A stretch of 64,000 bases of DNA from Naegleria gruberi (taxonomy: Eukaryota). Below are positions 26,672-59,500 of this stretch, in pieces. Position 1 is the first letter of the stretch; each line of letters starts with the position of its first letter. Below the pieces are notes generated by a model. The model did not search any database and was not told where the DNA came from. It saw nothing but the letters and a program-made list of their open reading frames with translations. Position numbers and translations under genes: made by a program. The stretch is taken from the NCBI GenBank assembly GCA_000004985.1, contig GG738914.1, one strand, 5' to 3'.

Positions 26672-28033
26672 TTAGGGATATTGGACTCGATTTCCTAAGG
26701 TGATGTTTTGATAGGCTTCCTTCATGCGAATGTCAAATAATTCTTTCGAGTATTGTACATAGAATCCATTGGATTTAACTGCTTCGATCTGAAGTAGCAA
26801 GTTGTTCTTTCTGTTTTGTCCGTTTAATAAATAACCCAAATTTGTTCCATCCATTCTGATATTTCTTTGAGGATCATATAGAGATGAAATATTGCTATTT
26901 GGTGGAGAACTCTGATAAAGATGTTGTTGAATTTCAGTATCTTTCTGTAGAGATAGGGGAATTAAGGAAGTAAGAAATCGATTCTTTGAAATTGCAAGCA
27001 AAGCCAATGTCTTGTCATGTTTCAATTCTGTGGAGCAGAATTCGTATGCTTCTGGATTCTTTTGAATAGCTATCATGACCAGCTCTCTATCATTTTTCAA
27101 TTCATTGGAGGCATATTTGAGAGCTGCACCATTTTGATTCACTGCTTGGAGCACTATTTCTCTATCATTCCTTAGTGAATCGTCCAAATATTGAAGAGCT
27201 GCTCCGTAGCGAGTGACACTTTTCATGACAATGTTTCTGTCTTTTTTGAGAGTTGTTGATGCATATTGGATGCAAGAACCTTGGCTTTTGATTGCTTCCA
27301 TTACTAATTCAAAGTCATTTTGTAAATTGGAATTTACATATTTAAGAATCTCAGGATGAGTATTGACAGCTGTTATCACAATTTCCCTATCATTTCGAAA
27401 TGAAAATGTGTATTCCAATGCTCTTCCGTTTCGTTTCACAGCCTCAAATACCAATTCTCTATCATTCTGTAATGATTTATCAGCAAACTTGATAGATAAT
27501 GGCTCGTTTTTCACTGCCTCCATCATTAATTCCCTGTCCTTTCTTAATTGTTGCGAAACATGCGAAAGAATTTCTGAATCTCCATTTCTTACACATTCCA
27601 ATAGTACATTCCTACAATTTATCCATTTCACTAACTCCTTTTTTACTGATCCAATCTTAATAATATCACTAAATTGGTATCTTTTAGCTAATTTTACAAC
27701 CATTTCCTCAGTCAATCGATCTTGCAATTTTTTCCCTTGTTTACAAAAGCTTACAAAAAATTCAACGAAAATGTCTTCATCTTGTTGTAGGCTCGGAGGA
27801 ATCTGTTCAAATATCGAAATGGCCTTTGGAAAATCCCTTCCACAATTTTCTCTTCTAATAAACTTGAGTAGAAAATTCTTATCATGAGAAAATTCTATCG
27901 GAATGTATTGATAATTGTCTTCTCTGCGCTCCAGCCATAATTTTCTAAATTTCCTATCAATAGAATAGTGGTTTTTCAGGAGAGAACTTGGTGCCGAGTC
28001 GGAGAGCATAATTATAACATGTTGTTGATTCAT
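26672..28033 (-). CDS. DUF4116-repeat protein
   Basis: At least eight tandem ~30-aa repeats of the form NDRE(I/L)V(L/M)xAVxxNGxALxYAS..L+ (for example DREIVLQAVNQNGAALKYASNELKNDRELVMIAIQKN), characteristic of DUF4116. ATG at 28033. Confidence 0.55.
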   Translation of the reverse strand: MNQQHVIIMLSDSAPSSLLKNHYSIDRKFRKLWLERREDNYQYIPIEFSHDKNFLLKFIRRENCGRDFPKAISIFEQIPPSLQQDEDIFVEFFVSFCKQGKKLQDRLTEEMVVKLAKRYQFSDIIKIGSVKKELVKWINCRNVLLECVRNGDSEILSHVSQQLRKDRELMMEAVKNEPLSIKFADKSLQNDRELVFEAVKRNGRALEYTFSFRNDREIVITAVNTHPEILKYVNSNLQNDFELVMEAIKSQGSCIQYASTTLKKDRNIVMKSVTRYGAALQYLDDSLRNDREIVLQAVNQNGAALKYASNELKNDRELVMIAIQKNPEAYEFCSTELKHDKTLALLAISKNRFLTSLIPLSLQKDTEIQQHLYQSSPPNSNISSLYDPQRNIRMDGTNLGYLLNGQNRKNNLLLQIEAVKSNGFYVQYSKELFDIRMKEAYQNITLGNRVQYP

Positions 28034-28331: not shown

Positions 28332-29231
28332 ATGACTCAAAAAAAAATGACCAAACGTGTATTAATTTTTGGTCAATCAGGTGTAGGTAAATCCTCCATG
28401 ATCAATGCTCTCGCCAATAGCAAACTCCCAGTTTTGGATGGAGCAGTTGGAACCACCTTTGAAAGCGAAGAAGTTTCGTTTAAAGATTCGTCCAATCAAG
28501 AAATACTTCTCATCGATACAGTAGGTCTCAGCGAATCAGCAACTGGCACCTCCTCTTCAATCGATTCTTTCATCAAACTCAAAAATCTATTGAAAAAATC
28601 AACTTGCGGTTTCAATTTAATGATCTTTGTAACAACCAAAGATCGAATCACAGGTAATGATAAAGCCAATATCGAACTATTCAAGACTATTCTTGGTGAT
28701 GACAAAGTGCCAGTAATCATGGTGGTTAATAAGAGTGAAAATCTTGAAGATTGTGAGAATATGGTATTAGATTTGGAGAGTAATCAGTGGGTTACTAAAA
28801 ATCTTTTGTATATTGAACAAGTTTATGGAAAGGATTGTTTTGCTTGTATTAAATCGACTTCTTTCCCATGTACGAAAGGAGACGATTTGACATTCTCTGA
28901 AGAGGAAAAGAAGTTGGTTAGTGAAGCTTCGAGAAGGATTGTTCTCGCAATGATTAACAAGTACTCTTCCAAGGAAAGTGTAGTACTTATCAGATCTAGT
29001 CAAGATTTATTTTCGAAACTCGTTCGAATGTGGAATTTGTTTCTTTTTAAAACTGGAGAGACAGCTTTCAAGATTGGAATTGATTTACAATCATTCTCAA
29101 GTGTTGGAAAGTTGGCAGAGAAACTAAAGGTGATCTTTAAGGCAGATATTAATTTTCTTGAACTGGCTATGGATCTTTATGGAATTGGTGTCAATAACAA
29201 TGAACATGATGTTGCTTGTAATAAAAAATAA
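28332..29231 (+). CDS. P-loop GTPase, AIG1/GIMAP-like (TRAFAC class), paralog A
   Basis: G1 FGQSGVGKSS; switch-I Thr in VGTTF; G3 DTVGL; G4 variant VVNKSE; a C-terminal ~150-aa helical extension. ATG at 28332. Confidence 0.55.
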   Translation: MTQKKMTKRVLIFGQSGVGKSSMINALANSKLPVLDGAVGTTFESEEVSFKDSSNQEILLIDTVGLSESATGTSSSIDSFIKLKNLLKKSTCGFNLMIFVTTKDRITGNDKANIELFKTILGDDKVPVIMVVNKSENLEDCENMVLDLESNQWVTKNLLYIEQVYGKDCFACIKSTSFPCTKGDDLTFSEEEKKLVSEASRRIVLAMINKYSSKESVVLIRSSQDLFSKLVRMWNLFLFKTGETAFKIGIDLQSFSSVGKLAEKLKVIFKADINFLELAMDLYGIGVNNNEHDVACNKK

Positions 29232-29283: not shown

Positions 29284-30177
29284 TTAGAATCCCAAAATAT
29301 CCTTAGCAACTTCTTGTGCCTTCTCCTTACTAACACCAAAGTTAATCATTAGCGCTTGAGTAACATTTTCCAACTTTTCTTCAAGCTCATCACGAACATT
29401 GAAAACATCCTTATGACCAAATATTCCAGCAATAGCATTTCCAATACTTGCAAAGGTCTTTTTCGTATTAATATAGAACCAATTCAATACTCTTGTGAGG
29501 ACTGTCATGAAATTTTCCTTCGTTACAATAAAAATACTTTCATCAGAAGCATGTTGGTCAATCAGATCAAACAATAGTTTTCTTGAGGTGTTGCATAATA
29601 AATTGATACTTTCATTGTTGCTAGTAAAGGAAGGTTGTGGGAAGGCAACTGTTTGTTTTGCACAGAAGGTTTGCTCACCGAAAGCACTTGCCAATTGAGA
29701 TTCGTTTTGTTTAATCCAAGTATTATTGGTTAAATCATCGAGAGATTTCAAACCGTTATCTGTGTCAGCTTTGGAAACAACCATAAGTGTTGGAACTTTG
29801 TTTTGGCCAAGGATTTGAGAGAATAATTGAACATTCTTTACATCACTACTTGTGATTCGTCCCTTTTCGAATACATAGATGAATAGGTTGAAACCTGTCA
29901 AGGAATCTTTCAAAAAGTCTTTCAACTTTACAAAGGCGGTAAAGTTATCAACTGTGCCAGATTCACATTCATTCAAACCTACTGTATCATCAAAACGATA
30001 GATTTTACCATTGATCTCTGTTCCCTGTTTGTTGATTGGTGGAATAATTGTCATTTGAAAAGTGACACCAACAGCACTGTCGTCAGTATTAAAGTTTTCA
30101 CCAGTCAAATTGTTTAAAATTGTGGTTTTGCCTGATCCTGAACATCCATAGATTAACACACGTCTTTCTGTTTTCAT
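29284..30177 (-). CDS. P-loop GTPase, AIG1/GIMAP-like, paralog B
   Basis: G1 YGCSGSGKTT; VGVTF; G3 DDTVGL; G4 variant VVSKAD. Colinear with paralog A over its whole length. ATG at 30177. Confidence 0.55.
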   Translation of the reverse strand: MKTERRVLIYGCSGSGKTTILNNLTGENFNTDDSAVGVTFQMTIIPPINKQGTEINGKIYRFDDTVGLNECESGTVDNFTAFVKLKDFLKDSLTGFNLFIYVFEKGRITSSDVKNVQLFSQILGQNKVPTLMVVSKADTDNGLKSLDDLTNNTWIKQNESQLASAFGEQTFCAKQTVAFPQPSFTSNNESINLLCNTSRKLLFDLIDQHASDESIFIVTKENFMTVLTRVLNWFYINTKKTFASIGNAIAGIFGHKDVFNVRDELEEKLENVTQALMINFGVSKEKAQEVAKDILGF

Positions 30178-30346: not shown

Positions 30347-31492
30347 ATGAAACCACCAAGTTTCGAATCACAAGTCATAAATTCTTCCAACTCTAAAACA
30401 CAACAAATAACTGCCTTCAACAGTGTTACCTACAATACCGACAATACCATTGCTATCAAATATCTAAACCAATCGAATGGTGACGTTTCCAAAGCCATTG
30501 AAAATTATTTTGATGAACAGGAACAACAGTCAACTGATTCAGATCGATCAAGTATTTCAAATCCTTCCAGTGATGTAATTCGCATTTTGGTTGTTGGTAT
30601 TACAGGTTCTGGTAAATCATCCCTTGTCAATGGAGTTACTGGAAGTACATTAGCAACAAGTGACAATGCCAATGGATGTACCTGTGGATATAAACGACAG
30701 GAATGTGAATACGAAAGTCAAAAATTCGAATTAATCGATACAGCTGGATTTGGTGAAGTTTCTGAAGTTGGAACTGTAAAACCAGATGTTGCTTTCAAAT
30801 CTATTCAAAAATTGGTCAGATATTCATACTCTGGTTACAATTTGATCGTATTTGTGACAACAAAGAAAAAAATTACTCAAACTGATGTTGATCATGTCAA
30901 GCTAATCACAGAGATACTTTGTAAAAACTCCATTCCAACAGTATTACTTGTTAACAAGTCTGAATCTGGTGCTAACAAAATTGATGACATCTGTCAAAAT
31001 AAGTGGCTCAATGATAATAATGGAGCAAATCTGAATGAATTCTACAAAGCTTTTGGAAAGGACACCTTTCGAGCCATTCAACAAATTGCTTTTCCAAAAG
31101 GTGAAAAATCAATCCTTCAACAAATTAGAGAAGCATCCAAAAGGATATTCTTCGAGAAGGTTATTCCCTATGCTTCCCCAACAAGAATTGTCATGAAACA
31201 CACAGTATCTCAATTTCTATCGGATTGTTACAGAACTGAGACAAGTGGTGTAGATGGTACCTCAAAGCATAATTTCATTGTTGGAACCATACTATTGCCC
31301 TTCCTTCCACTCATGTTATGGGCGGAGAGTTTTGAAAAAACCATGAAAAAGAGGGAAATTAAAGAGTTGGAAGAAGAGCACAGTAATTTTTTGGTTTCAA
31401 CCTTATCAATCAGTAAGAAACAGGCAGTACAAATTGCCAAAGAGAGCGTCACCTATGAATTTTCTGAATTGGGATCAGGTTCATGGGAATAA
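30347..31492 (+). CDS. P-loop GTPase, AIG1/GIMAP-like, paralog C, with an N-terminal UBA-like domain and a C-terminal hydrophobic segment
   Basis: N-terminal TIAIKYLNQSNGDVSKAIENYF is UBA/CUE-like. G1 VGITGSGKSS; G3 DTAGFG; G4 LVNKSE. C-terminal FIVGTILLPFLPLMLWAESF is a possible membrane anchor. ATG at 30347. Confidence 0.5.
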   Translation: MKPPSFESQVINSSNSKTQQITAFNSVTYNTDNTIAIKYLNQSNGDVSKAIENYFDEQEQQSTDSDRSSISNPSSDVIRILVVGITGSGKSSLVNGVTGSTLATSDNANGCTCGYKRQECEYESQKFELIDTAGFGEVSEVGTVKPDVAFKSIQKLVRYSYSGYNLIVFVTTKKKITQTDVDHVKLITEILCKNSIPTVLLVNKSESGANKIDDICQNKWLNDNNGANLNEFYKAFGKDTFRAIQQIAFPKGEKSILQQIREASKRIFFEKVIPYASPTRIVMKHTVSQFLSDCYRTETSGVDGTSKHNFIVGTILLPFLPLMLWAESFEKTMKKREIKELEEEHSNFLVSTLSISKKQAVQIAKESVTYEFSELGSGSWE

Positions 31493-31719
31493 CGAGTTGA
31501 CTTGTAAATCCTAACACACGCTCATGCTCTTTCACTCTGTACCTATACCAACCTACCGTGTAACATTCTTGTTAAATTTGCTTTCAATTCCGTTGATTAC
31601 GATCAATCAACATTTTCAAACACAAAACATAAAAGCTTGTTTGTTGTTCAACAATTTTTGCTTTTACAAAATCTGCTCAAAAGTCTGACCTAAATATTTG
31701 AATTCTACAAATCAAAAAA

Positions 31720-32751
31720 ATGTTGTTAGCATCTGTCCTTCTTTCAATCTTTGCAATCTGCTTCACTATTGTGTTGATCATTCTCTGTAAAACTGAATTT
31801 GATTCTGATGAAATTTATGTTTTTCCTTCGGTAAGCATTGACGGAAAGGAAGAAGACAACACGTCATCAATTTTTGAACCATTGCCAACATGCAGTAGTG
31901 CTCCTCTATCATCAACTCATGAAGAAGTGGACGAAAGTGTTCCATTGATCATTGACTTGGGATTATTTGATTGTTATTATGGGAGACCAAAGAATAGTGA
32001 CGGAGTGTCAAGTCCTATGTACATGTTGTCTACTGTTGGGTTCAGATCTGATTTTTCAACTCTAGACTTTGGAAATTGTCAAGAATATTCCAAGTGTGGT
32101 TTCGAATACAAATTTTTGATGGCCAACGTAGAGAATGTTGAAAGATATTTCATTGATTTTGTTACCAATATTATCAACAAGTCAGATCTTGGCAATAAGA
32201 AGATTAGATTGTTGATTGTTGGACCAGAATTAGATTATGATAACGAAATTAGAAAGAAAATGACTCAATTACTATTCGAATGTTCGAATGTTACTCATCT
32301 CTGTATCACTAAACCTTCCGAAATGGCAGCTTTCGCGTTAGAGAAGAAAAATGCAATTATCATTCACTCTGATGGCATCTCAACTAATATTGTTCCTGTT
32401 ATTGAAGGCGAATCTTCTGATTACTTATTGAGATTTGAAAATTCATTGGTTGACTATAAGAATTTAACAAAATTCTACATGAAGAATCAAACAAAACTTG
32501 GAGAAACAGTGAATGCTTCCTCTACTGGAATTTCAAAGCTTGTAATTGAACTCCTTTCTGATCTTGGAGATGATTACAATTTCACAGATACAATAGTTTC
32601 AGGTCGCTCACTTTCGTTTAAAAGAATGAAAGAATGGAAATCAATTCCAAACATATCTAAGAGTGAATACAAACCAGAAGAATTAGTTTGGATGGGTGCA
32701 TGTAAATTCGCAACTTATAGCTCAAACCAAAGATGGGTTTCACTTCAATAA
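31720..32751 (+). CDS. Highly divergent minimal actin-fold (Arp-like) protein with an N-terminal hydrophobic anchor
   Basis: PLIIDLGLFDCYYG recalls the actin phosphate-1 motif [45 protein letters not shown]...IIIHSDGISTNIVPVIEGES aligns to the actin [55 protein letters not shown], and C-terminal ...TIVSGRSL...VWMGACKFA to VLSGGTTM...[10 protein letters not shown]. Subdomain 4 is shortened. N-terminal MLLASVLLSIFAICFTIVLIILC is TM-like. Confidence 0.45.
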   Translation: MLLASVLLSIFAICFTIVLIILCKTEFDSDEIYVFPSVSIDGKEEDNTSSIFEPLPTCSSAPLSSTHEEVDESVPLIIDLGLFDCYYGRPKNSDGVSSPMYMLSTVGFRSDFSTLDFGNCQEYSKCGFEYKFLMANVENVERYFIDFVTNIINKSDLGNKKIRLLIVGPELDYDNEIRKKMTQLLFECSNVTHLCITKPSEMAAFALEKKNAIIIHSDGISTNIVPVIEGESSDYLLRFENSLVDYKNLTKFYMKNQTKLGETVNASSTGISKLVIELLSDLGDDYNFTDTIVSGRSLSFKRMKEWKSIPNISKSEYKPEELVWMGACKFATYSSNQRWVSLQ

Positions 32752-33261: not shown

Positions 33262-36200
33262 ATGATGTTGTTGATTAAGGTAAACATGACTTTTAATGGA
33301 CCCTCCTCACCTATCAATTCGCCTTAAAGAATCCCTTCTATTTTGTAACTTGCATTTGATTCCATGTGTATGCATATGGATACATTGAAACGACCAAAAA
33401 AAACCCCTCAACTTGGCTGTGCACACAAACAGAGTTGCACCACACGCTTAACCTTAAAGAATTCATCGAAAAACAGTTCATTGTATAGGGTACGAAATGA
33501 ATAACTATCACTCTCTTGTTAAATTAGCTGATAGCCGTCATTTACTTGATGGTTGGAAGGTCTTTTATTGTTAAAGGAACTACCACTTGTTTTGGAGAAG
33601 ACAGTACCAGCTCTACCTCTTGTGGTGCTTTTGGAAAATGTGTAGGGAATGATACTTGCTCATGTGACCCCAACGTAGCAATAGGTTAGTAGTGCTTGTC
33701 AAACTTTTGCTTATGGTAATCACTTTTATTAAGGAACCAAATGCGAAACACAATTGTGTGGAGGTAAATTACCAACAGATCCGAAAGTTTGTGGAGGAAG
33801 GGGTGTATGTTATAATGGAGATTGTGCGTGCACTTTGGATGAAAGATTTGGTTCAACCCAACACGTTGGACTCACTTGTGAAATACCAGTTTGTTTCCCA
33901 CTCCTTGTAGATCCGTACAGACGTGAATACGAATGTGGAGGACATGGCACATGTGTAGAAACCAATATCTGTGATTGCCATGTTGGATATGGTGGTTATG
34001 ATTGTACCAAGACTGGTTTCAAATGTAGTGGAATCAATGCAACAAATTCCAAGGTGTGTTCTGGGCGTGGACAATGCATCGATCAAGATTATTGTCTTTG
34101 TCAATCGGATGATTATGGTGGAGTTGACTGTTCGACACCCAAGTGCAATGGTTTTCTAGCAACAGAAGAGGGAGTGTGCAATGGACGAGGTCAATGTCTG
34201 CAACCAAATAATTGTACTTGTACTTCTGGATTTAGTGGAACAAATTGTGAACTTGATGCCAGTAATCAACAAGTTGAGAGAATAGTGACTTGTTATGGAG
34301 TGCTTTCAAATGATTCTGTGAATGTATGCTCTGGTAAAGGATCTTGTTTTGGAAATGATTATTGCAGCTGTCAGATAGGTTATACAGGTGCTCGGTGTAA
34401 TGAAACATTTTGCTTTGGAGTTTTACAAACAAGTGACAAGACATGCTCTGGAAATGGTGTTTGTTCATCATTGAATACTTGTTCATGCAATAATAATTCA
34501 CCCTTTTTGAGATATGTGGGTGAGGAGTGTGGAATTCTTCAATGTCGAGGAGTTGACTTGGAATTTTACAACTCCACCGATGTGAGAGTATGTTCAGGGA
34601 GAGGAGCATGCATAGATCATTTAGGATGTGTTTGTAATGAGGGTTATTATGGAGAATCTTGCCAAATCTCTTCATGTTTTTCAGTTTTATCAAATAGTTC
34701 ACAAGTTTGTAATGGTCATGGAATTTGTCAAGATTTGGACAATTGTGAATGTTATTCAAATTCTACAAATGGATACTGGTATGGAGATGATTGTTCGGTG
34801 TGTGCTAATTCCTATGAAGGAAATCTCTGTAATCTAAAGAAATCTTGCAACTCTTCCACTACTTGTATGAGCTTGGGTGAGTGTTCAAACAATGATTTAT
34901 GTCGTTGTGAAAGCTCTTTTGATGGAGAGAATTGTGAAGAATGTGCTCTTGGTTATTATGGCCCTTTGTGTGAAATATTTTGCTCTGCAGAATTGAATTG
35001 TTCTTCGAATGGAGTGTGCTCAAGAGATGGATTTTGTGATTGCTATCAATCGAGAGAATTGGGTTATTTCCAATCAGAAAACTGTTCCAAATGCTCGCCA
35101 GGATACTTTGGTAATGACTGCTCAACGTTTGTTGGATCAAATTTCACTTTTAACAATTATGGAAATGAGCTAATTTTGAGAATAATTCCTCCTCTCAATA
35201 TTGACAAGATTCAAACTGAAAATGAATGCAAAACTTTCTTCCCCCCTAGATCTAGATTAAAACTGGGTGGAGAATTCACTTGTCATTGGATAGACGTTTA
35301 CAACGGATATCTTTCAGTGCTGATTCCTCAAAACGCAACAATTATACCAGGAGATTTCTTAGAGTTTAATGTTTATTCATTTGAACAATATGCAAAACCA
35401 GCTCAGTATCGAAATATCACGTCATTTGCAAGTGATGTGAACAAGATTATCACGCAACATGCTGACATTGAAACTGCAACAAGTTTCCAGAAAGGAACAA
35501 CCTTAACCATCAGGGGAAAGAGTTTGATAAGTATTGAAAGAGAAAGAGAATTGTATTATGAGTGGAGTATTGTAAATTCTAACCCTACTATGAATTCACT
35601 AAATAGTCATGTCAGCTCTCAGTCAGGATGGGGTAAATCAGTCATTTCCATTCCAAGTTCTTTCACATCAAGTGTGAACCTTATCAATCTCAAACTAAGA
35701 ATTGCAAATTATTATCAACAATTTGGATCTGAAAAGCAAGTTATCTTACAAGATTTGTCAACTGCCAGCTCATCAGTCAATCAAGTACAAATCAAAATTA
35801 CAACAGCAAGAAATAGATTATACATACTCAATGATATACTTCCTTACAAAATCAATTGCAAATTGACCGTAAACGGTGTGCAAGTCACCAACATTATATC
35901 GAGCGGATACTCAATTGAATGGAGTCTAAGTCCTGATCTTGGAATAGGTTTAGCAAATCTCACCCTTATTACATTGAAACCATATACAAGTGACAATAGC
36001 ACTGTTTTGTTTACATCTGAAGATACTCTGTATTATGATTTCTACAATGTACCTTATACAGTCTTTAATGTGTCAGCTGTTGTTAAGAAAAATGGAACTG
36101 TCGTCTCTAGTGACAGTTTACAAATTCATTTCAATTTATTTGAGCAAAAGCAGTATGGTATTACACTGTCTCGAACACCTACTGATATGACCATTGATGC

Positions 36201-37308
36201 TCAATATCCAGCTGTCATATCATTATCCATTCCACCAGAAGTAACAATTTTATCAGTTGAGTGGGCATGTTTTGCCTATCACATGTATAAGGGAAAGTGT
36301 CACGATCAATATCAAGCAATTATTGCTCAAAGTGGAAACAAGACAAGAATTGAACTTCCAAAGAGTGCCATTTTCCTTCATTATAACACTGTAAAATTCT
36401 CTGTAAAAATTACAACCACTTCAGGAGTTGAGTATCGAGATACAAGTTTTTCACCAAGTGCCTCCTATCAAATTCCATATGCAGTCACAGAGACTGCCTT
36501 CTTCAGTTCTGGCTATAGAGGACCATTTAGATTGTATTCTCTTCATGGAACTAAATTCTCTTTCGAATATCGTTTATTTGATAGCACAGAACCATCCATA
36601 GCATCAGCAGGTGATGCTCCAGCCACAACTGGAACAGTTACAGCATATAACGTTTACAGTAACAATCAAATTACATTAAGTGCCGCCAATGGAATAACTA
36701 CCTACACAGACACTTACTACAGTGGTCCAAATTTGGCTAAATTAGTTAAAGTTGACATGACAAAATTTTCATCTCCAATTTATTTCCAAGTGAAATTTAC
36801 TTACAAAACTTTGGAGATGAATGTTAGACAATATTTAATTATTGGAACAGTTCCAAGAGAAAGGGTGGATATTAATGTGAAAGTTGTTCCATTCGTTCAA
36901 AATCCAGAGTTCAGCAATTACATTTTTCAAGTTTCGAATGATGTAGCAAATTCATTCTATGAAGTAACTGTTTCTCTTTCTCTGAGATATAAGAATGACA
37001 CTAGCATGTCCTACTCATTTGGTTCTCTGTCCATGTTTAGTTTAAATAGAGAGGTAAAAATTGCCTTTCCACCTCTCTTGGATTCGTTTACAATCTATAA
37101 GAAAGTAACCTATTATACGGATTCCTGGGTTGGGTACGAACATGAAGAATCACTTTATATCTACGAAGAAGAAGTTGCCTCATTCCCTGCCTCTCCACAC
37201 AGTTCTGATCCATTCATTAAGGCGATGCAATCAAAAATTAAGATTGCATTCGAAAAGGGATCGAATTATCTTTCTTCAGCTTCATCCATTATGAATTCAT
37301 ACTATTAA
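33262..37308 (+). CDS. Large secreted EGF-repeat glycoprotein (about 16 laminin/tenascin-type EGF modules plus a Cys-poor C-terminal domain of ~800 aa); 3 exons, first exon inferred
   Basis: Exon 3 (33734..37308) and exon 2 (33528..33684) are joined by a 49-nt GTTAGT..AAG intron (33685..33733) in phase 1: ...NVAIG|TKCETQLCGG.... A candidate exon 1 at 33262..33279 (ATGATGTTGTTGATTAAG + GTAAAC donor) with an AG acceptor at 33527 would give the signal-peptide-like N-terminus MMLLIKLIAVIYLMVGRSF. EGF modules such as CSGRGQCIDQDYCLCQSDDYGGVDCSTPKC repeat. Many NxS/T sequons. Confidence 0.6.
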
Positions 37309-38759: not shown

Positions 38760-41223
38760 TATTTTACGGTTTTATGTTACTCTTTAGGATGGAAGGAAAT
38801 ATTGAGATACCTTCCAATAAATTTTCTTGATTACTTAATTTTTTGTTAAGAAAAAATACCCGCCAAATATTCCTTCCAGTTTTGCACAGAATTCCAACTT
38901 TTATTGGAAAATTAAAAAAGATTAAAATAAATTTGAAAAATGTTTATTTTTTATTAAAAAAATTTAAACGTTTATTAATCGAATGAACCCGACGGGTTCG
39001 TCCATTTGGAACGTCTTATTGAATTTTTAAGATTTTGTTGTATTGTTTTTGTACTCTTCCTCCAAAAAGTGAGAGGCCTCCTTGTATCTTGGGCCATTGT
39101 TCTTTGATAATACCTTGAATAGGTTCTGTCAGAATACCAAAGATATTCAGTTGGAATGAGTTTGGTGTTAATGTTTCTGTCCTCTCTGTGCTTAGTACTG
39201 GTTCGAGATTGGTATTTTTTTTGATTTCTTCAATCATCCAGTTTCTAGCTGAATTCATTTCTGGGCATTCTATGAAGAGGTGTTCTGTGTCAAGGTTTTT
39301 GTTACATGTTGGGCATTGTGGGTTGTCTACTATGAGGCTTCTTAAGTGTCCATTTATCATGAGCCTCCAGATTGAGTATTTGTGAGTTGGGGTGGTATGT
39401 TCTTTGAGGTACTTGAGATTTGTTCTGTTGATGAGTTCGGATGTTCCTTGATCGTAGAGCTTTTCACTAAGTACTCCTTTGATTCTACTTTTCCAAACTT
39501 TTTTCGAATTGGTGATAATTAATTGCCCTTGAGTTAGTAGATGTTGGGGTGTAATTCGATGTCCTATTCTTGAGGCTTGTTTGGCTTTCTTATCAGCGTA
39601 GTTATTTCCATCTGTTATTCCTGTATGAGCTTTTGTCCATTCGATGGATGCTTGAAGTTTTTTAGTGCTGATGAGGTTGGTAATTTCATCTTTGATTTGC
39701 TTAAATTGACCTTTGTAATTTGTGTTGTTAATTATTTTGACTGCTATTTCACTGTCAGTGAGTACCTTTGCATTGCTGTTTGGTGGTATGATGTGTAGTG
39801 CTGTTGTAATTGCTGATAATTCAGCCATGTTGTTTGAGTGGTATGAGTGGAGCTTGTATTTGTATCCTTTTGTAAATTCGTTGTTCTGAATGATTACACT
39901 GAATCCTACTTTGTTTTCTGATTTGGATCCATCAGTCCATATTGTGAATTCTGAGTAGGAGTATTGTTCATCTTTTTCCTTTTCCAGAAGTTGATGATTG
40001 GTGTTACATTTTGTTGTGGTAAGTTTGTGTTGTTTTAGGATGTAGTGGAATTTCTCAAATATGTTGTGTAGTTTTGTTTTGTTCGTGTTACAGTTATTAA
40101 TTCCGTACTGTACTGCTTCTCTGACAAGTGGGTTACTTGAGTGGAATTTGTTGATTAAGTTATTGCAAAGGATTGAGTTGGCTATGTATTCGAGGTTTGG
40201 AATTTCTAGTCCTTTTCTTTCGAATTGTGCATACATTATGGATGGTTTTACCTTTGCATCGATCTTCAGTGATCTTTTTAGGTTACCCCTTATTGTTGAG
40301 TCAATTGTTTGTAGGCGAGGATTGGAAATTGAATTTCCTCCTGCTAGATGGATAAAACTACTAATTGTCTTGCCCATTATGATTCTTTTGAGATTTTCTG
40401 GTTCTATCAAATGGATTGGAAGTATTTTTAGTATTTGTGTTACTCTAGCTTCTCTTTTGTCAATTTCTTTTGTGAAGAGATGGTCTTCTGTGATGTAGTT
40501 TCCTAATGTTCTTTGATTGGTTTGTCTTGGTATTAACGTATCGTCAAGCTTAACTGTGAAGTCTTTAAGGGCTATTCTTTCCGGTGTGACAGAAGTTATT
40601 GATTTAGAAGCATTGATTTTCATTTTGAGATTCCCTATCCATTTGTTCAGTTGTTTGAGTTTGGTATTGTGTTTCTTGTTGGGTTGTGTTACTAATGAGC
40701 AGTCATCAGCAAAATTAAGAGTTCCTATTTCTTCAATTTTGAATGATGGTGTGACAGGTATTTTCCAATTCTCGATTTGGTAATCTATTATAATTTGGGT
40801 GATTGTGTTATACATTAGTGGTGCTAGTGGACATCCTTGTGGAACACCTCTTGTTTTGGTGAGAGGGTTAATTAATATGTCATTCCATTCTATATATGCT
40901 TTGTGATTGCTGTATGCATTGATTATGAATGTAGTGAGATTTGGTGGGAATTTACAATGTTTCATAGCTAATCTAAGGACACAATGTTCTACACCGTCAT
41001 ATGCATTTTCTATGTCCAAGTTGGTGATTACAAATGCATTTGTTTTCTTGTATTTGACTCTTAATGCTTGGATTACTAGAATATGGTTGTTAACTTCTCT
41101 GTTGGATGTGAATGCTTGTTGTCTAATATTGATGTTATCTTTTGCCCATTTACCTATTTTCCTTGCTATGATGTTAAATAATAGTCTATATAGTGTACTA
41201 TTTTTTATTAAAAAAATGATCAA
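38760..41223 (-). mobile_element. 5'-truncated non-LTR (LINE) retrotransposon: RT, RNase H and a CCHC zinc knuckle, with a structured 3' UTR
   Basis: Minus-strand ORF 39016..41223 has RT motifs 0-C (…AFTSNRE…, DIENAYDGVEH, RGVPQGCPLAPLMYN, FADD), an RNase H block (TDGSKSENKVGFSVII...DSEIAV...KAHTG...NNYADKKAK), and a C-terminal Cys/His knuckle (CPTCNKNLDTEHLFIECPEM). There is no endonuclease or ORF1 part, and the RT fingers start at the ORF edge. The 3' UTR contains a perfect hairpin GAACCCG-A-CGGGTTC (38985..38999). The 3' boundary is not precisely defined. Confidence 0.75.
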
Positions 41224-42271
41224 TCAACAAGACAACATTTCTGCATCACCTTCTCTCACTAGCAATAACAATCATCAGAGACCAATCAGCACACCCGATG
41301 ATCGTCCAACAACTGTTAACATTCCATCACAAATTAGTCAAAATTCTAACCGACCAGTGGTTGCCCCAATTTCTTCCCAACAGCACAAGGATACAAAGTA
41401 TATTATGGTGGCTGATATTGCCTCTGCAAAGATTTTTGCAAATATTATGCACTGTATTTGTTCCGATAAGAAGAAGGAAGATGCTTGGGTGATTTGCGAA
41501 ATTATGGAGGAAGGAATTAAATTCTACATTCAAGACAAATCAATTCAAGGAGTTGCTAGTATGAAGAGGGATATTTTCCAAAATTATATTTATAATGGTG
41601 CAGCACATGCAAAATATTCATTCGAAATTAATGTACAAATCTTGATTCAATGTTTGATTTTATACGGAGCTAATTCATCACAAGGAACAATTGTGAAACT
41701 TTGTTATCCTGGTGTTGAAAATACATTATCATTACTTTTGGGAGAAGAACGTGTAGTAACAGATTGTAATATTAAGATTAGGCATGGAGCAGAACCTTTA
41801 GATTTTGAATTCAAAGGTTCTGAAGAAACATGTAAAATTGTTTTAAAGAGTGAAGTTATGACTGATGCTCTTTCAGAAATTGATTGGCTTGCAAAGACTA
41901 TGGAAATAGGTGTTGAAATGGATGTCCAAGAGCAAGGTGAGGACCAAGTTGCCATAACTTTACCAAAAGGAAAATTATTTTTCAAAACAGTTGATAATGT
42001 GATTGGATCTATGGATATTATTATTCCAAGTACAAATGAGGGTGTATGTTCCTTTGAGGTAAATCACACCCAAATGAGCGTATTTAAATTATCTCATATT
42101 CAACAAGCTTTAAAGGCTTTACCACATTCTGATAGAGTTTGTATTAGAATGAATGAACAAGGTTTACTACAATGGCAATTCATGGTTCGTGCAACTGAAC
42201 CAATAACCTATGTAGATTACACAATGCTACCAATTGATGCAGAATTAGAAGATACAGATTCCACCTTCTAA
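41216..42271 (+). CDS. RAD1: RAD1 (Rad1/Rec1/Rad17 family) checkpoint clamp subunit of the 9-1-1 complex
   Basis: YIMVADIASAKIFANIMHCI aligns to human YSLVASLDNVRNLSTILKAIHF. NVQILIQCLILYGANSSQGTIVKLCYPGVENTLSLLLGEERVVTDCNIKIRHGAEPLDFEF aligns to human NLTVLLDCLSIFGSS..GTLTALRMCYQGYGYPLMLFLEEGGVVTVCKINTQEPEETLDFDF. C-terminal RMNEQGLLQWQFMVRATEPITYVDYTMLPIDAE aligns to RTDNRGFLSLQYMIRNEDGQICFVEYYCCPDEE. The first in-frame ATG is at 41216; the track ORF extends 5' through LINE antisense sequence. Confidence 0.7.
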   Translation: MINQQDNISASPSLTSNNNHQRPISTPDDRPTTVNIPSQISQNSNRPVVAPISSQQHKDTKYIMVADIASAKIFANIMHCICSDKKKEDAWVICEIMEEGIKFYIQDKSIQGVASMKRDIFQNYIYNGAAHAKYSFEINVQILIQCLILYGANSSQGTIVKLCYPGVENTLSLLLGEERVVTDCNIKIRHGAEPLDFEFKGSEETCKIVLKSEVMTDALSEIDWLAKTMEIGVEMDVQEQGEDQVAITLPKGKLFFKTVDNVIGSMDIIIPSTNEGVCSFEVNHTQMSVFKLSHIQQALKALPHSDRVCIRMNEQGLLQWQFMVRATEPITYVDYTMLPIDAELEDTDSTF

Positions 42272-55220: not shown

Positions 55221-56354
55221 TTAGAAACACTTTCTATGAATAAAACCAGGACCAGCATCATCATATTCTTCTTTCGATATCCACATCTGCTGAAAGGTTG
55301 CAAGGCTCGCAAGGATACTGCCTCCAATCCACACTGAATACTTTCTTTCAGGTGGAGCAACAACCTTAACCTTCATTGAGGCTGGAGCCATGGCTGTCAA
55401 TTCCTTGGTCATTCTGTCAGCAATACCTTCGAACATGGTAGTACCACCAGACAAGACCACATTACCGTACAAATCCTTTCTAATGTCAATGTCACATTTA
55501 CCAATTGAGTTGAAGGCTGTTTCATGAACACCTGCAGCTTCCATACCAATGAAATTAGGTTGGAATAAAACTTCTGGACATCTGAATCTTTCATTACCAA
55601 CAGTGATAACATTTCCATCTGGCAATTCATATGACTTTTCAACTGAGGATGATTCAGCAGCAACTTTCATTTCAGATTCGAAATCCAAAGCAACATAACA
55701 GAGCTTTTCCTTGATATCTCTGACAATTTCTCTTTCAGCAGTAGTGTTGAATGAGTAACCTCTTTCCATCAAAATCTTCATCAAGTATTCAGTCAAGTCA
55801 CGACCAGCCAAATCCAATCTCAAAATGGCATGTGGCAAGGAATAACCTTCATAAATTGGAACAGTGTGTGAAACACCATCACCAGAGTCCAAAACAATAC
55901 CAGTAGTTCTACCAGAAGCATACAAGGACAAGACAGCTTGAATGGAAACATACATGGCTGGAACTGTGAAGGTTTCAAACATGATTTGAGTCATCTTTTC
56001 TCTGTTGGCCTTTGGATTCAAAGGAGCTTCAGTCAACAAGACTGGATGTTCCTCAGGAGCAACTTTCAATTCATTGTAGAAAGTATGATGCCAAATCTTT
56101 TCCATATCATCCCAATTAGTTACAATACCGTGTTCAATTGGATACTTCAGAGTCAAGATACCTCTCTTAGATTGAGCTTCATCACCAACATAGGCATCCT
56201 TATTACCCATTCCAACCATGATTGATTTTTGCTTTGGTCTACCAATAATTGAGGGAAAGACAGCTCTTGGAGCATCATCACCAGCAAAACCAGCTTTACA
56301 CATACCAGAACCATTGTCAACAACTAGAGCTTGAACATCTTCACAGAATGACAT
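55221..56354 (-). CDS. Actin (conventional), single exon
   Basis: 377 aa and ≥90% identical by eye to conventional actin throughout ([36 protein letters not shown]...[39 protein letters not shown]). Confidence 0.95.
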
Positions 56355-56560: not shown

Positions 56561-59500
56561 TTAGACGGTCATCAGTTCTACATCTTGTGGTTTTGATTTT
56601 TCAAATGTTCGTTTCTTCCTTCTTAAACATCTGACAATTAAAATTGAAATAATAACAATCATGATTCCACAACAGCAGACAACTAATAATCCAAATAATC
56701 CAAACAGACCATACAATGCCAGATTTGAACTCGTTCTTGGTGAAATACTTGTTTCATGTTCTAGTTGTGTTATGGTTGAGTTGGAAATTGTCTTTTCAAC
56801 AACTATGAGTGAAGTGACAGATTTCGAACAATTACAGTAAATTACTGGTGCTGATATTGTCGTGGAACAAGTGTGATTGGACGTAAGAGAGATGATATTG
56901 TCAATTAGAACACATTCAATAGTTGAAAAGACACTTGTTCTTTGTTCAATATTGTCGCTTGTACTTTCAAAAGTATTTTTCACATTGATATTTGAAAAGT
57001 TATACTCATTTCCAAGATTGAATGAGAATGTAATATCTGCAGTAAACTTCTTTTCAACAGAAACAATCTTACTGAGTGACTTGAAAGTTGTTTTAGTCTC
57101 AATTTCTTCCAAATCTGAAATTTTGATTGTTTGAACATTTGATACTTGTTTCAAAGAATAATAAACTCCCAAATGGTCAGTAACTGAGAAGAATGATGCT
57201 TCCAAAACAAGTCTATTAGAAACACTTGTATCAATAGCATCAAATACAAGTGAGCTATTTCCACCATCAGATGTCATTAATTTCTTCACTTGTTGATTCT
57301 TATAACTCAACAGAGAAACAGTTGAATAATGAGAAAGGTTTACACTATAATCTTTCTGACCTACGTAATAACTTCTCATCAACACATTGCTGAATATCTT
57401 AATTGAATCTAACACTCTATACGTGTCTTGCAGTTTACTGTCACCAGTTAATCTAATAATATTGTTAAATAAGCTGCTACATAACTTTTCTACACCCTCA
57501 GCAACTCTGAATTTCGTGTTTTTGGCAGCCATTACCATCAATTTTTCAGTCAAGTTGAATAACTTTTCGAATGGAAGTGAATTAATTGAATCACAATTTG
57601 AAGCCAAAGATTCCAACCCAAAAGAATAAACTCTAAAGTGAATGTCTGAAATCAATTCTAGAGGATTTCTCTGATTTAATCCAAGTATCATACTGTCAAG
57701 CATTTCATCTCTCAATTCATAAGCAATACCCGCTTCGTTTTCAGCCAATTTTCTTGATGTTATCAAATTGGAAATCATTAACTCTGATGTTCTTGAAATA
57801 GTTGCAGAATTGAAAACCAACTTGGCACTATCACTTGGCAGAAGAGATGCAGCCTTTAATTGCCAAACTTTCACTTTGTTTTTGATTTGTAACATTGAAG
57901 AGGCAGTGGGTGTTTTAACTTCCACTGATTTGATAAACTCAACTGATGCACCAGTATCCAAATCAACAATATCCACAAATGTATCCATAACATTTGAACT
58001 AAATGGAGAAGGAAGATAGGAAGCAAACTTCTCACCCAAATTGTAAAGTGGAATTTTAGTTCCTGACTTGTCATCAATGAACCCAAATACAAAATCAATT
58101 GATTGTTCAGCATTTTGGCATCCAGGACATGAGAACGAGAATTCAGTTTCCAATGCATAACCATATGATGGATTAATATAACACAAACATGATTTTGGTG
58201 ATTTGACAATTTTGAATTTGTACGAGAATCTTGATGAAAGATTATTTCTCCTGTCTGAAACTTGGAATTCAATTTCATACTCTCCATCTTCCAGTAACTC
58301 AAGAAGCGACAGAATTAATGATGAAGATTTAGATGGTTGAGTAGACATTTTAGAGATCATTGAATTAGTCAATGAATTACCATTAATTGACCACTCTCTG
58401 ATCATATCCTCTTCATCAGTTTGTTTTTCATCTCCTCCCAAAATAACTGATAATTGTAAACTCAATACTTCATCTTTGAGAACTTTGAATCTGTTTGGAT
58501 AAACAGAAATTAAACTTATCACTGGTGGAATTAACAATTCAGTGTTTGGATAATCAATGTCAAGAGATTTAGAAATGGAACGTAGTCCTTTCTGAATGCT
58601 CAATGTCAGAGAAACTTTTGAAAGACTTCCTTTAGGAATTTGACATGTCGATGATTTGGTAATGGCATAATGTGTTAAAATATTGGAAATTGTTGAATCT
58701 TGACATGCTTGATTTGAAACTCTATCAAAACATGACCAATTCCATGAATCTGAAACTGAATCTATATTATCAGGATCTGAATTCTCAACTATCACATCAG
58801 CTTGATTGGTATTCAAACTAGAAACATAAATATTTAGTAATAAATCTCTTGATTTGCTTGAAAGTGGAATTAAAAGTGTTGCGTTCGAATTTGGATTGAA
58901 TTTTGAAATTGCTTTTACACCAAATGAATAAGATTCATCCCCATTTGATAATATTTCTGTAATAACCAAATCATTATTTGAATCTATTTGATAATTAATA
59001 GTGGATGGACCTGAGAGTTTCTCCCAAATATAGTCAAATTCCCTGTTATCAAAATAACATGAAGGTAATTCAATAGATTTCTTAACAATTATTGGGAGCG
59101 AACCCTTTTCAATATTGGTGAGTGACATTTTGTTTGTAAGCAATGAAAGAGTAGGATTTGGAACAATTGATTTGATAATTTCAATAAATTTCTTTTCACT
59201 CCTTGCGCCACTGAGAGAACTTTCAGCAATCAAGCCAAAGACATAGCTTCCTGAAATCGAAATACTATTTGAGGTCAAAGTTGAATTGAAATCACCAAAA
59301 GAAACCTGTTGCAAGTTGAAATTTGAATCAGGAGATGATTCAATAGACCAAATAAATTTCACAGGTTTCAAATCACCACAATATGATCCAGAAGCATCAA
59401 TTGCAATTTGTTCACATGGACTAATTGTATTCTTAAATGAAATATTGATTATTGGTTTCACAGGGTTGTTGGAGGGAAGCAGTAACAGTGAGATATATCT

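What the first reader, a model, noticed from the sequence alone, without database searches (positions are those of the whole stretch)
31720..32751. Membrane-anchored minimal actin-fold protein
The 343-aa protein shows clear but very divergent actin-family colinearity: a phosphate-1-like IIDLGLFDCYYG, the KMTQ block, the DSGDG-equivalent HSDGIS, and a C-terminal ...VWMGACKFA. It lacks most of subdomain 4. It begins with a strongly hydrophobic segment (MLLASVLLSIFAICFTIVLIILC) and carries several NxS/T sequons. Actin-related proteins are normally soluble cytoplasmic or nuclear factors. An Arp-like fold behind a signal anchor is either a novel lineage-specific family or a mis-modelled N-terminus.
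Basis: partly seen in the sequence, partly recalled or inferred. Interest (0 to 1): 0.5.

Follow-up and report, generated by a model that had tools for sequence, protein, structure and literature searches.

The report
Membrane-anchored degenerate actin paralog in Naegleria
A gene seen only in the amoeba Naegleria gruberi encodes a shortened relative of actin that has probably lost ATP binding and starts with a membrane-inserting segment, an unusual combination that is conserved between strains but has not been tested in the laboratory.

Summary
The ORF is real: window 31720-32751 (+), 343 aa, identical to N. gruberi XP_002670514.1 / D2VZD1, annotated only as "predicted protein".

- **Actin homology, solid part.** Residues ~134-268 match actin ~76-205: Pfam Actin 28.0 bits against a cutoff of 27, PDB actins E 4.5e-5, hhalign E 1e-11 to 1e-13.
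- **Actin homology, weak parts.** The C-terminal 288-343 is collinear but marginal (E~0.03). The N-terminal 72-133 is not significant on its own and holds two rival phosphate-1 candidates.
- **ATPase residues.** In the alignments, Ser14/Gly15, Gln137, Asp154 and His161 are all replaced.
- **Size.** About 100 residues are missing, mainly in the subdomain 3/4 half.
- **Structure.** AlphaFold2 failed to fold it (pLDDT 34-35), so an intact actin fold is not shown.
- **Membrane segment.** Residues 2-23 are 22 uninterrupted apolar residues. An in-frame stop lies 6 codons upstream and the next Met is residue 100.
- **Constraint.** Two metagenome alleles keep the whole ORF (pN/pS 0.07), while the upstream spacer diverges and carries indels.
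- **Sequons.** N-x-S/T sites are enriched 2.5-fold (P~0.007), hinting at luminal or extracellular exposure. Orientation remains unresolved.
- **Distribution.** No ortholog was found anywhere, including N. fowleri and N. lovaniensis.

Verdict: a lineage-specific, membrane-anchored, degenerate actin paralog. It is a new variant of a known kind and of moderate interest.

The parts
31720..32751 (+). Complete single-exon CDS of 343 aa plus TAA. It equals N. gruberi NEG-M XP_002670514.1 / EFC37770.1 / D2VZD1 (NAEGRDRAFT_74447), annotated 'predicted protein'.
   Evidence: ORF listing. Exact-sequence look-up. Against metagenome allele L001: 11 synonymous and 3 nonsynonymous differences, pN/pS 0.07, binomial P 6e-6.
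31493..31719 (+). Non-coding spacer between the upstream AIG1-like GTPase gene and the ATG. It contains the in-frame TGA at 31699-31701, and the ATG context is A-rich (aaaaaaATG).
   Evidence: In-frame translation of the upstream sequence. 88.7-89.5% identity to the two alleles, with 10-nt and 4-nt indels.
31720..31788 (+). N-terminal hydrophobic segment, residues 1-23 (M + LLASVLLSIFAICFTIVLIILC). Predicted signal anchor or transmembrane helix.
   Evidence: Kyte-Doolittle 19-mer mean up to 2.96. AlphaFold2 single-sequence helix 2-27 with pLDDT 86-90. The only allelic change is the conservative L3F.
31789..31932 (+). Acidic, Ser/Thr/Pro-rich linker or 'stalk', residues 24-71. Residues 24-75 have net charge -11. 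Contains sequon N47.
   Evidence: Charge count. pLDDT 22-30 and no secondary structure. Allele L002 carries an in-frame 6-nt deletion here, and its 3 substitutions in codons 1-72 (nt 9, 174, 186) are all at third codon positions.
31933..32118 (+). Residues 72-133: the presumed N-terminal strands and subdomain-2 equivalent, with unresolved homology. It holds two rival phosphate-1 candidates: IIDLGLFDCYYG (31948-31983) and TLDFGNCQEYSKCGF (32059-32103).
   Evidence: hhalign global and MAFFT A3 choose the first. MAFFT A2 and hhalign restricted to actin 1-85 choose the second. The segment alone gives no significant collinear hit.
32119..32523 (+). Residues 134-268: the robustly actin-homologous core, equal to actin ~76-205. 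It includes RKKMTQLLFE (32251-32280), the degenerate phosphate-2 HSDGIS (32365-32382) and IVPVIEGE (32389-32412).
   Evidence: Pfam Actin covers 159-230. PDB actins cover 175-279. hhalign of the core: E 1.8e-13, with 0 of 150 shuffles reaching its score. phmmer hits P0005 and P0006 span 134-267.
32581..32748 (+). Residues 288-343: C-terminal part collinear with actin ~292-358. IVSGRSLSF (32593-32619) corresponds to the adenosine motif VLSGGTTMF, and VWMGACKFA (32686-32712) to VWIGGSILA.
   Evidence: hhalign: query 288-343 on actin 292-358, E 0.028, with 5 of 150 shuffles reaching it. MAFFT A3 gives invariant columns S294, G295, V323, W324, G326 and W339.

Best explanation
This is a real protein-coding gene restricted to the N. 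gruberi lineage. It most likely arose from a duplicate of conventional actin and was remodelled into a single-pass secretory-pathway protein.

**Proposed anatomy.**
- An uncleaved N-terminal signal anchor (residues 2-23).
- An acidic, disordered stalk of about 50 residues, rich in Ser, Thr and Pro.
- A shortened actin-derived domain of about 230-270 residues. It has lost the phosphate-binding and catalytic residues, so it is probably nucleotide-free. It has also lost much of the subdomain 3/4 half and the C-terminal end, so it is probably unable to polymerise.

**Proposed mechanism.** SRP recognises the hydrophobic N-terminus and the segment inserts into the ER membrane. With modest preference for this orientation, the actin-derived domain is translocated to the luminal or extracellular side and N-glycosylated. 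There it would act as a structural or binding module, not as a cytoskeletal ATPase.

**Shown.**
- The ORF exists and is under purifying selection.
- The core is homologous to actin.
- ATPase residues are replaced in the alignments.
- The N-terminus is hydrophobic and conserved between alleles.
- Sequons are enriched.
- No orthologs were found.

**Inferred.** Origin from conventional actin, membrane insertion, orientation, glycosylation, loss of nucleotide binding and polymerisation, and any function.
For: **Real and constrained.**
- pN/pS is 0.07: 11 synonymous against 3 nonsynonymous differences, P 6e-6.
- 16 of 17 substitutions in the second allele fall on third codon positions, and its only indel is in frame.
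- The CDS is 98.4-99.5% identical to allele L001, against 88.7% for the upstream spacer and 94.6% for the downstream sequence.

**Actin-derived.** all support this. The 60 best PDB hits listed are all conventional actins, with no Arp among them.

**Degenerate active site (alignments).**
- Phosphate-1 Ser14-Gly15 becomes Leu-Phe, or Asn-Cys in the rival candidate.
- Lys18 becomes Tyr in the first candidate.
- Gln137 becomes Pro199.
- Asp154 becomes His216.
- His161 becomes Asn223.
- Gly302 becomes Arg296.

**Shortened.** The actin-like part is 272 residues or fewer, against 375-377 in actin. The largest gap lies in the subdomain 3/4 half.

**Anchor.**
- 22 uninterrupted apolar residues.
- A confident helix in AlphaFold2.
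- No way to start the protein elsewhere without losing residues 72-99.

**Luminal lean.**
- Sequons: 8 observed against 3.2 expected, ratio 2.5. This is the highest of 15 window ORFs and exceeds the two EGF-rich surface proteins.
- The C-terminal flank of the segment is net negative (K, then E, D, D, E). By the charge-difference rule this keeps the N-terminus cytosolic (own knowledge: Hartmann, Rapoport and Lodish 1989; von Heijne's positive-inside rule).
- The Ser/Thr/Pro-rich acidic stalk and two close Cys pairs (C120/C126 and C188/C195) fit an exoplasmic domain.
Against: - No expression or localisation data could be found.
- AlphaFold2 does not give a confident fold even with an actin alignment (pLDDT 34, pTM 0.33), so an intact actin fold is unproven.
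- The N-terminal third of the putative domain has no independent similarity to actin.
- Orientation is ambiguous. There is no positive charge N-terminal to the segment, and a very long, very hydrophobic core favours the N-out / C-cytosolic orientation (own knowledge: Wahlberg and Spiess 1997; Goder and Spiess 2003).
- Conventional actin needs the cytosolic chaperonin CCT to fold, which is absent from the ER lumen (own knowledge).
- The sequon enrichment is a single statistic, P about 0.007, on a feature that was picked out beforehand.
- One sequon (N287) is lost in both alleles.
Confidence: 0.4

Rival explanations
1. Same gene and same anchor, but in the opposite orientation (type III, N-out / C-in). 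The degenerate actin-like domain would sit on the cytosolic face of an endomembrane or the plasma membrane. There it would act as a membrane-bound actin mimic or adaptor, recruiting actin-binding proteins or capping or docking filaments.
For: - No positive residue precedes the hydrophobic core, and the core is 22 residues long with KD about 2.9. Both features favour translocation of the N-terminus (own knowledge: Wahlberg and Spiess 1997).
- All known members of the eukaryotic actin/Arp family are cytosolic or nuclear, and actin folding depends on cytosolic CCT (own knowledge).
- N. gruberi has a hugely expanded actin/Arp repertoire, 78 genes, linked to its amoeboid lifestyle (PMC7594500).
Against: - The C-terminal flank is net negative: +1 and -4 within 8 residues, and -11 over residues 24-75. 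This is the opposite of P450-type N-out anchors.
- The 2.5-fold sequon enrichment is unexplained on the cytosolic side.
- Surfaces used by actin-binding proteins cannot be recognised, because the N- and C-terminal parts are so divergent.
Confidence: 0.3
2. Chimeric orphan. Only an actin-derived fragment (residues ~134-268, perhaps plus the C-terminal motifs) survives inside a lineage-specific membrane or secreted protein. The complete actin (ASKHA) fold is no longer formed.
For: - Only residues 134-268 are independently significant. The N-terminal segment gives chance-level, non-collinear hits.
- There are two equally poor phosphate-1 candidates.
- AlphaFold2 gave pLDDT 34-35 in both runs.
- Foldseek TM-scores to actin were 0.34 or less, with rmsd 10-15 Å.
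- The gene sits in a region of expanded families next to a retroelement ORF.
Against: - Global hhalign is collinear from residue 63 to 343, at 98.4% probability.
- The C-terminal block aligns in the right order and with roughly the right spacing: SG at 294-295 and VW.G at 323-326.
- The predicted secondary-structure elements follow the order of the actin core: H137-154, E162-167, H175-188, E191-197, H199-206, E212-217, E222-227, H246-259, H268-280, E290-294.
- An actin fold without subdomain IIB exists in AlfA (10.1101/190744).
Confidence: 0.15
3. Gene-model artefact. The hydrophobic N-terminus is not part of the protein, either because translation starts at Met100/102 or because an unrecognised upstream exon or intron changes the 5' end.
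For: - No transcript evidence was available.
- About a third of N. gruberi genes have introns (own knowledge).
- A GTAAGC sequence occurs at 31832-31837.
Against: - An in-frame stop lies 6 codons upstream, and there is no other ATG before codon 100.
- Starting at Met100 would remove residues 72-99 of the collinear alignment.
- The 227-nt upstream spacer has frame-breaking indels between alleles, so it holds no coding exon.
- Codons 1-72 are as conserved as the rest of the CDS, with third-position changes and an in-frame indel.
- The ATG has A at position -3.
Confidence: 0.07
4. Non-functional relic: a decaying actin duplicate that merely retains an open frame.
For: - Extreme divergence, loss of catalytic residues and deletions.
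- No orthologs.
- Poor structure prediction.
Against: - pN/pS of 0.07 with P 6e-6.
- The frame is intact in three independent alleles, including across an in-frame deletion.
- The CDS is clearly more conserved than both flanks.
Confidence: 0.05

Closest known systems
Conventional actin (Pfam PF00022), for example the N. gruberi actin NAEGRDRAFT_55489 encoded at window 55221-56354 (-)
   Same: - Homologous core with the RxKMTQ(I/L)(M/L)FE helix and the (V/I)VP(I/V)xEG strand.
- Collinear SG and VW(I/M)G motifs near the C-terminus.
- 29% identity over 93 aa.
- Best PDB hits are all actins.
   Different: - About 100 residues shorter in the actin-like part.
- Phosphate-1, phosphate-2 and catalytic residues are replaced.
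- It carries an N-terminal transmembrane segment and an acidic linker.
- There are no orthologs, and it is not confidently foldable by AlphaFold2.
Lineage-specific 'orphan' Arps and actin-like proteins: Drosophila Arp53D and testis Arps (PMC7038667, PMC8291977), apicomplexan Alps (PMC13644374), ciliate tArp (PMC13589156)
   Same: Divergent actin-family paralogs restricted to one lineage, arising by duplication of actin or Arp genes.
   Different: - From what I know of those proteins and the titles and abstracts listed, they are soluble cytosolic or nuclear proteins of roughly full actin length. I did not read these papers in full.
- Those proteins are conserved across a clade. This one has a membrane anchor and large deletions, and is confined to N. 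gruberi-like strains.
AlfA of Bacillus subtilis pLS32, a minimal bacterial actin-like protein (10.1101/190744)
   Same: Precedent that the actin fold tolerates loss of subdomain IIB (subdomain 4) and a size near 275 aa.
   Different: AlfA is a bacterial, ATP-binding, filament-forming plasmid-segregation protein with no membrane anchor. No specific sequence relationship to AlfA appeared: every significant sequence hit was a eukaryotic-type actin. The exact position of the deletion here is uncertain.
GDA1/CD39 NTPDases and ER-luminal Hsp70 (BiP): actin-superfamily (ASKHA) proteins that work in the secretory pathway (own knowledge)
   Same: They show that an ASKHA-fold domain can sit behind an N-terminal signal or anchor and function on the luminal or extracellular side, glycosylated.
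   Different: They belong to different families. At E up to 1, Pfam detects only PF00022 Actin in this protein, with no GDA1_CD39 or HSP70 hit. Those enzymes keep their phosphate-binding motifs, and this protein does not.
Membrane-bound prokaryotic actin homologs FtsA and MreB (own knowledge; MreB membrane binding in PMC4051119)
   Same: An actin-fold protein attached directly to a membrane.
   Different: They attach through amphipathic helices or loops on the cytoplasmic face, bind ATP and polymerise. This protein has a full-length hydrophobic transmembrane segment and a degenerate nucleotide site.

Membership tests
Actin family (Pfam PF00022) | Sequence match to the family profile at or above the curated gathering score | tested here: met
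   28.0 bits against a cutoff of 27, E 1e-6, covering only residues 159-230. This is a marginal pass. It is reinforced by hhalign at 97-98% probability and by PDB actins at E 4.5e-5.
Actin family (Pfam PF00022) | Collinear homology over the whole domain (subdomains 1-4) | tested here: inconclusive
   Global hhalign aligns query 63-343 to actin 1-358. Taken separately, though, the N-terminal segment is not significant and the C-terminal segment is marginal (E 0.028). About 100 residues are missing.
Actin family (Pfam PF00022) | Phosphate-1 loop D11-x-G13-S14-G15 ... K18 | tested here: not met
   Candidate 1 is D79-L-G81-L82-F83 ... Y86. Candidate 2 is D116-F-G118-N119-C120 ... K125. Ser-Gly is replaced in both.
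Actin family (Pfam PF00022) | Phosphate-2 loop D154-S-G-D-G-V and the catalytic residues Gln137 and His161 | tested here: not met
   The loop reads H216-S-D-G-I-S, one residue shorter in the HMMER alignment. Gln137 becomes Pro199 and His161 becomes Asn223.
Actin family (Pfam PF00022) | Adenosine-binding motif (L-S-G-G-T-T) and the C-terminal hinge V-W-I-G-G | tested here: inconclusive
   V-S-G295-R296-S-L and V-W-M-G326-A are present in collinear order, but the alignment is only marginally significant. Gly302 becomes Arg.
Actin family (Pfam PF00022) | Three-dimensional actin (ASKHA) fold | tested here: inconclusive
   AlphaFold2 gave pLDDT 35 (single sequence) and 34 with pTM 0.33 (43-row actin alignment). 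Foldseek top hits are all actin or Arp, but with TM 0.34 or less and rmsd 10-15 Å. That result is also partly circular, because the alignment was built from actins.
Conserved Arp classes (Arp1-Arp10) | Orthologs across eukaryotes and closer similarity to an Arp class than to actin | tested here: not met
   No ortholog appears among 5.8 billion or 1.84 billion clustered proteins, although Naegleria fowleri and N. lovaniensis proteins are present. The 60 best PDB hits listed are all actins, with no Arp.
Signal-anchored single-pass membrane protein | N-terminal uninterrupted hydrophobic segment of at least 19 residues, with no other hydrophobic segment | tested here: met
   Residues 2-23, Kyte-Doolittle mean up to 2.96, and nothing else above 1.2. 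Helix with pLDDT 86-90. The 22-residue core is longer than the 7-15 typical of cleaved signal peptides (own knowledge).
Signal-anchored single-pass membrane protein | Experimental membrane integration and defined topology | not testable with these tools
   There is only indirect evidence. Sequon enrichment and flank charges lean towards N-in / C-out. Core length and the lack of N-terminal positive charge lean the other way.
GDA1/CD39 NTPDases (membrane-anchored ASKHA ecto-enzymes) | Match to the GDA1_CD39 profile and conserved apyrase regions | tested here: not met
   A Pfam scan at E up to 1 returned only PF00022 Actin.

The most novel reading that the evidence does not exclude
The actin-derived domain is translocated into the secretory pathway and displayed as an N-glycosylated luminal or cell-surface module. 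That would be the first member of the eukaryotic actin/Arp family proper to fold and work outside the cytosol and nucleus, without nucleotide and without CCT.
Probability: 0.3. Interest if true: 0.75.

Novelty: new variant of a known kind. Interest (0 to 1): 0.45.

Why it matters
Actin and the Arps are regarded as strictly cytosolic or nuclear, nucleotide-dependent proteins that need a dedicated cytosolic chaperonin to fold.

An actin paralog that is under purifying selection, has shed its ATPase residues and about a quarter of its length, and has gained a membrane anchor would be a clear case of the fold being exapted for a non-cytoskeletal, membrane-associated role. This is especially so if the domain faces the lumen or the outside of the cell. 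It would also extend the known plasticity of the very large N. gruberi actin repertoire (78 genes, PMC7594500).

The limits are considerable. It is a single-species orphan, its fold is unconfirmed, and no expression data were found. For now it is a lead for a simple tagging and glycosidase experiment, not an established novelty.

Tried and rejected
1. **AlphaFold2, single sequence** and **with a 43-row actin alignment**. Both gave pLDDT about 34-35 and are unusable. Foldseek of the second model against the PDB gave only low-TM actin hits. I treat this as inconclusive and partly circular.
2. **Ortholog searches.** I ran a word-seeded search, exhaustive HMMER, JGI metagenome contigs and IMG/VR viral contigs. 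They returned only two near-identical alleles from one metagenome run and four weak actin-like hits.
3. **Giant-virus origin.** I considered this because the weak relatives P0006 and P0008 lie on gene-dense, intron-less contigs, and because a Naegleria giant virus and viral gene transfer in eukaryotes have been reported (PMC11043551; PMC12344493, which I did not read for N. gruberi detail). I set it aside for three reasons. There was no viral hit. Composition is uniform, GC 0.31-0.38 across the window. The neighbours include a canonical actin gene and gene families (AIG1-like GTPases, LRR, EGF-rich proteins) that fit a cellular locus.
4. **Synteny test in N. fowleri or N. lovaniensis.** Abandoned because all neighbours within about 10 kb belong to multi-copy families or are retroelement ORFs, so no reliable anchor exists.
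5. **Expression evidence.** Identifier searches and supplements of three Naegleria papers yielded nothing. A search for the sample accessions also found nothing.
6. **Independent significance of the N- and C-terminal motifs.** Segment-wise hhalign with shuffles showed the phosphate-1 assignment is not significant and is ambiguous.
7. **MAFFT alignment A4.** Adding the weak relatives moved the C-terminal alignment away from the SG motif, so I did not use it for folding.
Full report
**Observation.**
- An in-frame TGA lies six codons upstream of the ATG, and the next Met is residue 100.

**Source and annotation.**
- An exact-sequence look-up identifies the protein as Naegleria gruberi NEG-M XP_002670514.1 / EFC37770.1 / UniProt D2VZD1 (NAEGRDRAFT_74447), named only 'predicted protein'. 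The deposited model is this same single-exon ORF.
- Window GC of 0.31-0.38 fits that genome.
- I found no paper mentioning the gene.

**Is it a real gene?** Two near-identical alleles (343 and 341 aa) occur on two contigs from one metagenome run, ERR1078381.
- Against the window, allele L001 has 11 synonymous and 3 nonsynonymous differences: pN/pS 0.07, binomial P 6e-6.
- In allele L002, 16 of 17 substitutions are at third codon positions, and its only indel is an in-frame 6-nt deletion in the linker.
- The CDS is 98.4-99.5% identical to allele L001. The 227-nt upstream spacer is 88.7% identical, with 10- and 4-nt indels, and the downstream flank is 94.6%.
- The ORF, including its first 72 codons, is therefore under coding constraint. 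I could not obtain transcript evidence.

**Actin homology: the solid part.**
- Pfam reports only PF00022 Actin: E 1e-6, 28.0 bits against a gathering score of 27, residues 159-230.
- phmmer against all PDB sequences returns actins only among the 60 best hits listed. The best is E 4.5e-5, with residues 175-268 on actin 113-204.
- BLASTP against the canonical actin gene of the same window (55221-56354, minus strand) gives 29% identity over 93 aa, E 6e-8.
- Profile comparison gives 97.4% probability for query 72-261 on actin 6-199. In global mode it gives 98.4% for query 63-343 on actin 1-358.

**Actin homology: segment tests with shuffles.**
- Core, 176-265: E 1.8e-13, and 0 of 150 shuffles reach its score.
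- C-terminal 288-343: aligns collinearly with actin 292-358 but only marginally. E is 0.028 and 5 of 150 shuffles reach it.
- N-terminal segment alone: gives a non-collinear, chance-level hit.
It is NCQEYSKCGF (119-128) against [10 protein letters not shown], and 8 of 200 shuffles reach it.
- MAFFT switches between the two candidates depending on the sequence set.
- So the actin-like part starts at residue ~72 or ~112, and the phosphate-1 claim is plausible but unproven.

**State of the active site and size.** In the alignments:
- Ser14-Gly15 become Leu-Phe, or Asn-Cys in the rival hairpin.
- Lys18 becomes Tyr in the first candidate.
- Gln137 becomes Pro199, Asp154 becomes His216, His161 becomes Asn223 and Gly302 becomes Arg296.
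- The actin-like part is at most 272 residues, against 375-377 in actin.
- The largest gap (46-73 residues) falls at about actin 222/246-291/294, covering distal subdomain 4 plus the first helices of subdomain 3.
- Smaller losses lie in subdomain 2 and at the C-terminal end. An alternative alignment places the large gap elsewhere in the C-terminal half.

From established knowledge of actin's nucleotide site and filament contacts, I infer that the protein neither hydrolyses ATP nor polymerises. This is inference, not a result.

**Structure prediction.**
- AlphaFold2 gave mean pLDDT 35.1 with a single sequence. Only helix 2-27 was confident.
- With a 43-row alignment of the protein, its allele and 41 actins, it gave pLDDT 34.4 and pTM 0.33.
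- The predicted secondary-structure elements follow the order of the actin core.
- Foldseek hits are all actin or Arp, but with TM 0.34 or less.
- The fold is therefore not confirmed.

**N-terminal anchor and topology.**
- Residues 2-23 are 22 uninterrupted apolar residues, with Kyte-Doolittle mean up to 2.96. This is longer than the core of a typical cleaved signal peptide (own knowledge), so an uncleaved signal anchor is the likeliest reading.
- The segment is followed by K, then E, D, D, E. The linker is acidic and rich in Ser, Thr and Pro (net charge -11 over residues 24-75) and is predicted disordered.
- The flanks point in opposite directions. The negative C-flank favours N-in / C-out. 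The very long core with no N-terminal positive charge favours N-out / C-in (own knowledge of the charge-difference rule and of Spiess's work).
- An independent hint comes from the sequons: 8 N-x-S/T against 3.2 expected from composition (P about 0.007). The observed/expected ratio of 2.5 is the highest of 15 long ORFs in the window. Presumably cytosolic proteins range from 0.33 to 1.73, and the two EGF-rich surface proteins score 1.3 and 1.6.
- I therefore lean modestly, about 55-60%, towards a luminal or extracellular domain.

**Distribution.**
- The word-seeded search found only the protein's own cluster.
- Exhaustive HMMER over 1.84 billion cluster representatives found four further hits at E 1.6e-5 to 2.9e-4. 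All are divergent actin-likes from metagenomes or a EukProt genome.
- JGI metagenome contigs and IMG/VR gave nothing.
- N. fowleri and N. lovaniensis actins are in the database, so the absence of an ortholog there is meaningful.
- The gene lies among expanded families: three AIG1-like GTPases, LRR/F-box, DUF4116, EGF-rich giants and a retroelement ORF.

**Most likely mechanism and rivals.**
- Best reading (0.4): a lineage-specific actin duplicate remodelled into a signal-anchored secretory-pathway protein. Its dead, shortened actin-derived domain is exposed luminally or extracellularly and glycosylated.
- Rival 1 (0.3): the same protein facing the cytosol, as a membrane-bound actin mimic or adaptor.
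- Rival 2 (0.15): only an actin fragment survives inside a chimeric orphan, without an intact fold.
- Rival 3 (0.07): a mis-modelled 5' end.
- Rival 4 (0.05): a non-functional relic.
- The last two are disfavoured by the allele data.

**Comparison with known systems.**
- By homology it belongs to the actin family. It marginally passes the Pfam threshold but fails the family's functional signatures (phosphate-1, phosphate-2 and the catalytic residues).
- It is not a member of any conserved Arp class.
- Analogies, not memberships:
  - lineage-specific orphan Arps (PMC7038667, PMC8291977, PMC13644374);
  - AlfA, which shows the fold tolerates deletion of subdomain IIB (10.1101/190744);
  - GDA1/CD39 NTPDases and BiP, which are ASKHA folds working in the secretory pathway (own knowledge);
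  - FtsA and MreB, which are membrane-bound actin homologs.
- I found no report of a eukaryotic actin or Arp family member with an N-terminal transmembrane segment. That search covers open-access literature only.

**Verdict.** This is a new variant of a known kind with interest 0.45. It could be settled by a transcript check plus a tagging and glycosidase experiment.

Noticed in passing
window 55221-56354 (-): A canonical 377-aa actin gene (NAEGRDRAFT_55489, P0088) lies 23 kb from the divergent actin-like gene, in the same window. It is a possible donor or sister of the duplication.
   Followed up: partly
window 28332-29231 (+), 29284-30177 (-), 30347-31492 (+): A cluster of three AIG1/MMR_HSR1-type GTPase genes sits directly upstream. 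The nearest one (381 aa) also has an N-terminal UBA-like domain.
   Followed up: partly
window 39016-41223 (-): A 735-aa ORF with reverse transcriptase and RNase H domains (a retroelement) lies 6 kb downstream of the gene. It overlaps a 454-aa ORF on the other strand (40907-42271).
   Followed up: no
window 33754-37308 (+) and 56561-63973 (-): Two giant EGF/teneurin-like repeat proteins. The second has a signal peptide, an Asn/Ser/Thr-rich region very dense in sequons, and a C-terminal transmembrane segment. The first ORF starts at TTG and is probably part of a larger spliced gene.
   Followed up: no
window 26672-28033 (-) ; L005:2886-3902: A DUF4116-repeat protein in the window (five repeats, E 2e-78). 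By eye, a similar 'NG.AL.FAS' repeat protein lies next to the weak actin-like relative P0008 on a metagenome contig. I did not scan that neighbour against Pfam.
   Followed up: no
L003:6782-9332 (and L004): A gene-dense, intron-less 13.9-kb metagenome contig carries two tandem divergent actin-likes. In one (339 aa) the middle is replaced by 'ALI(D/N)PANKALI' repeats. The other is P0006. P0006 and P0008 share the Asp154-to-His ('HS') change with the N. gruberi protein. The contig could come from a giant virus or a compact protist genome.
   Followed up: partly
L001:1 and L002:1 (= window 31486): Both metagenome contigs start at the same base, 6 nt before the end of the upstream GTPase ORF. L001 ends 4 nt into the next ORF. 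These look like assembly breaks at multi-copy flanking genes. Two alleles coexist in one sample.
   Followed up: no
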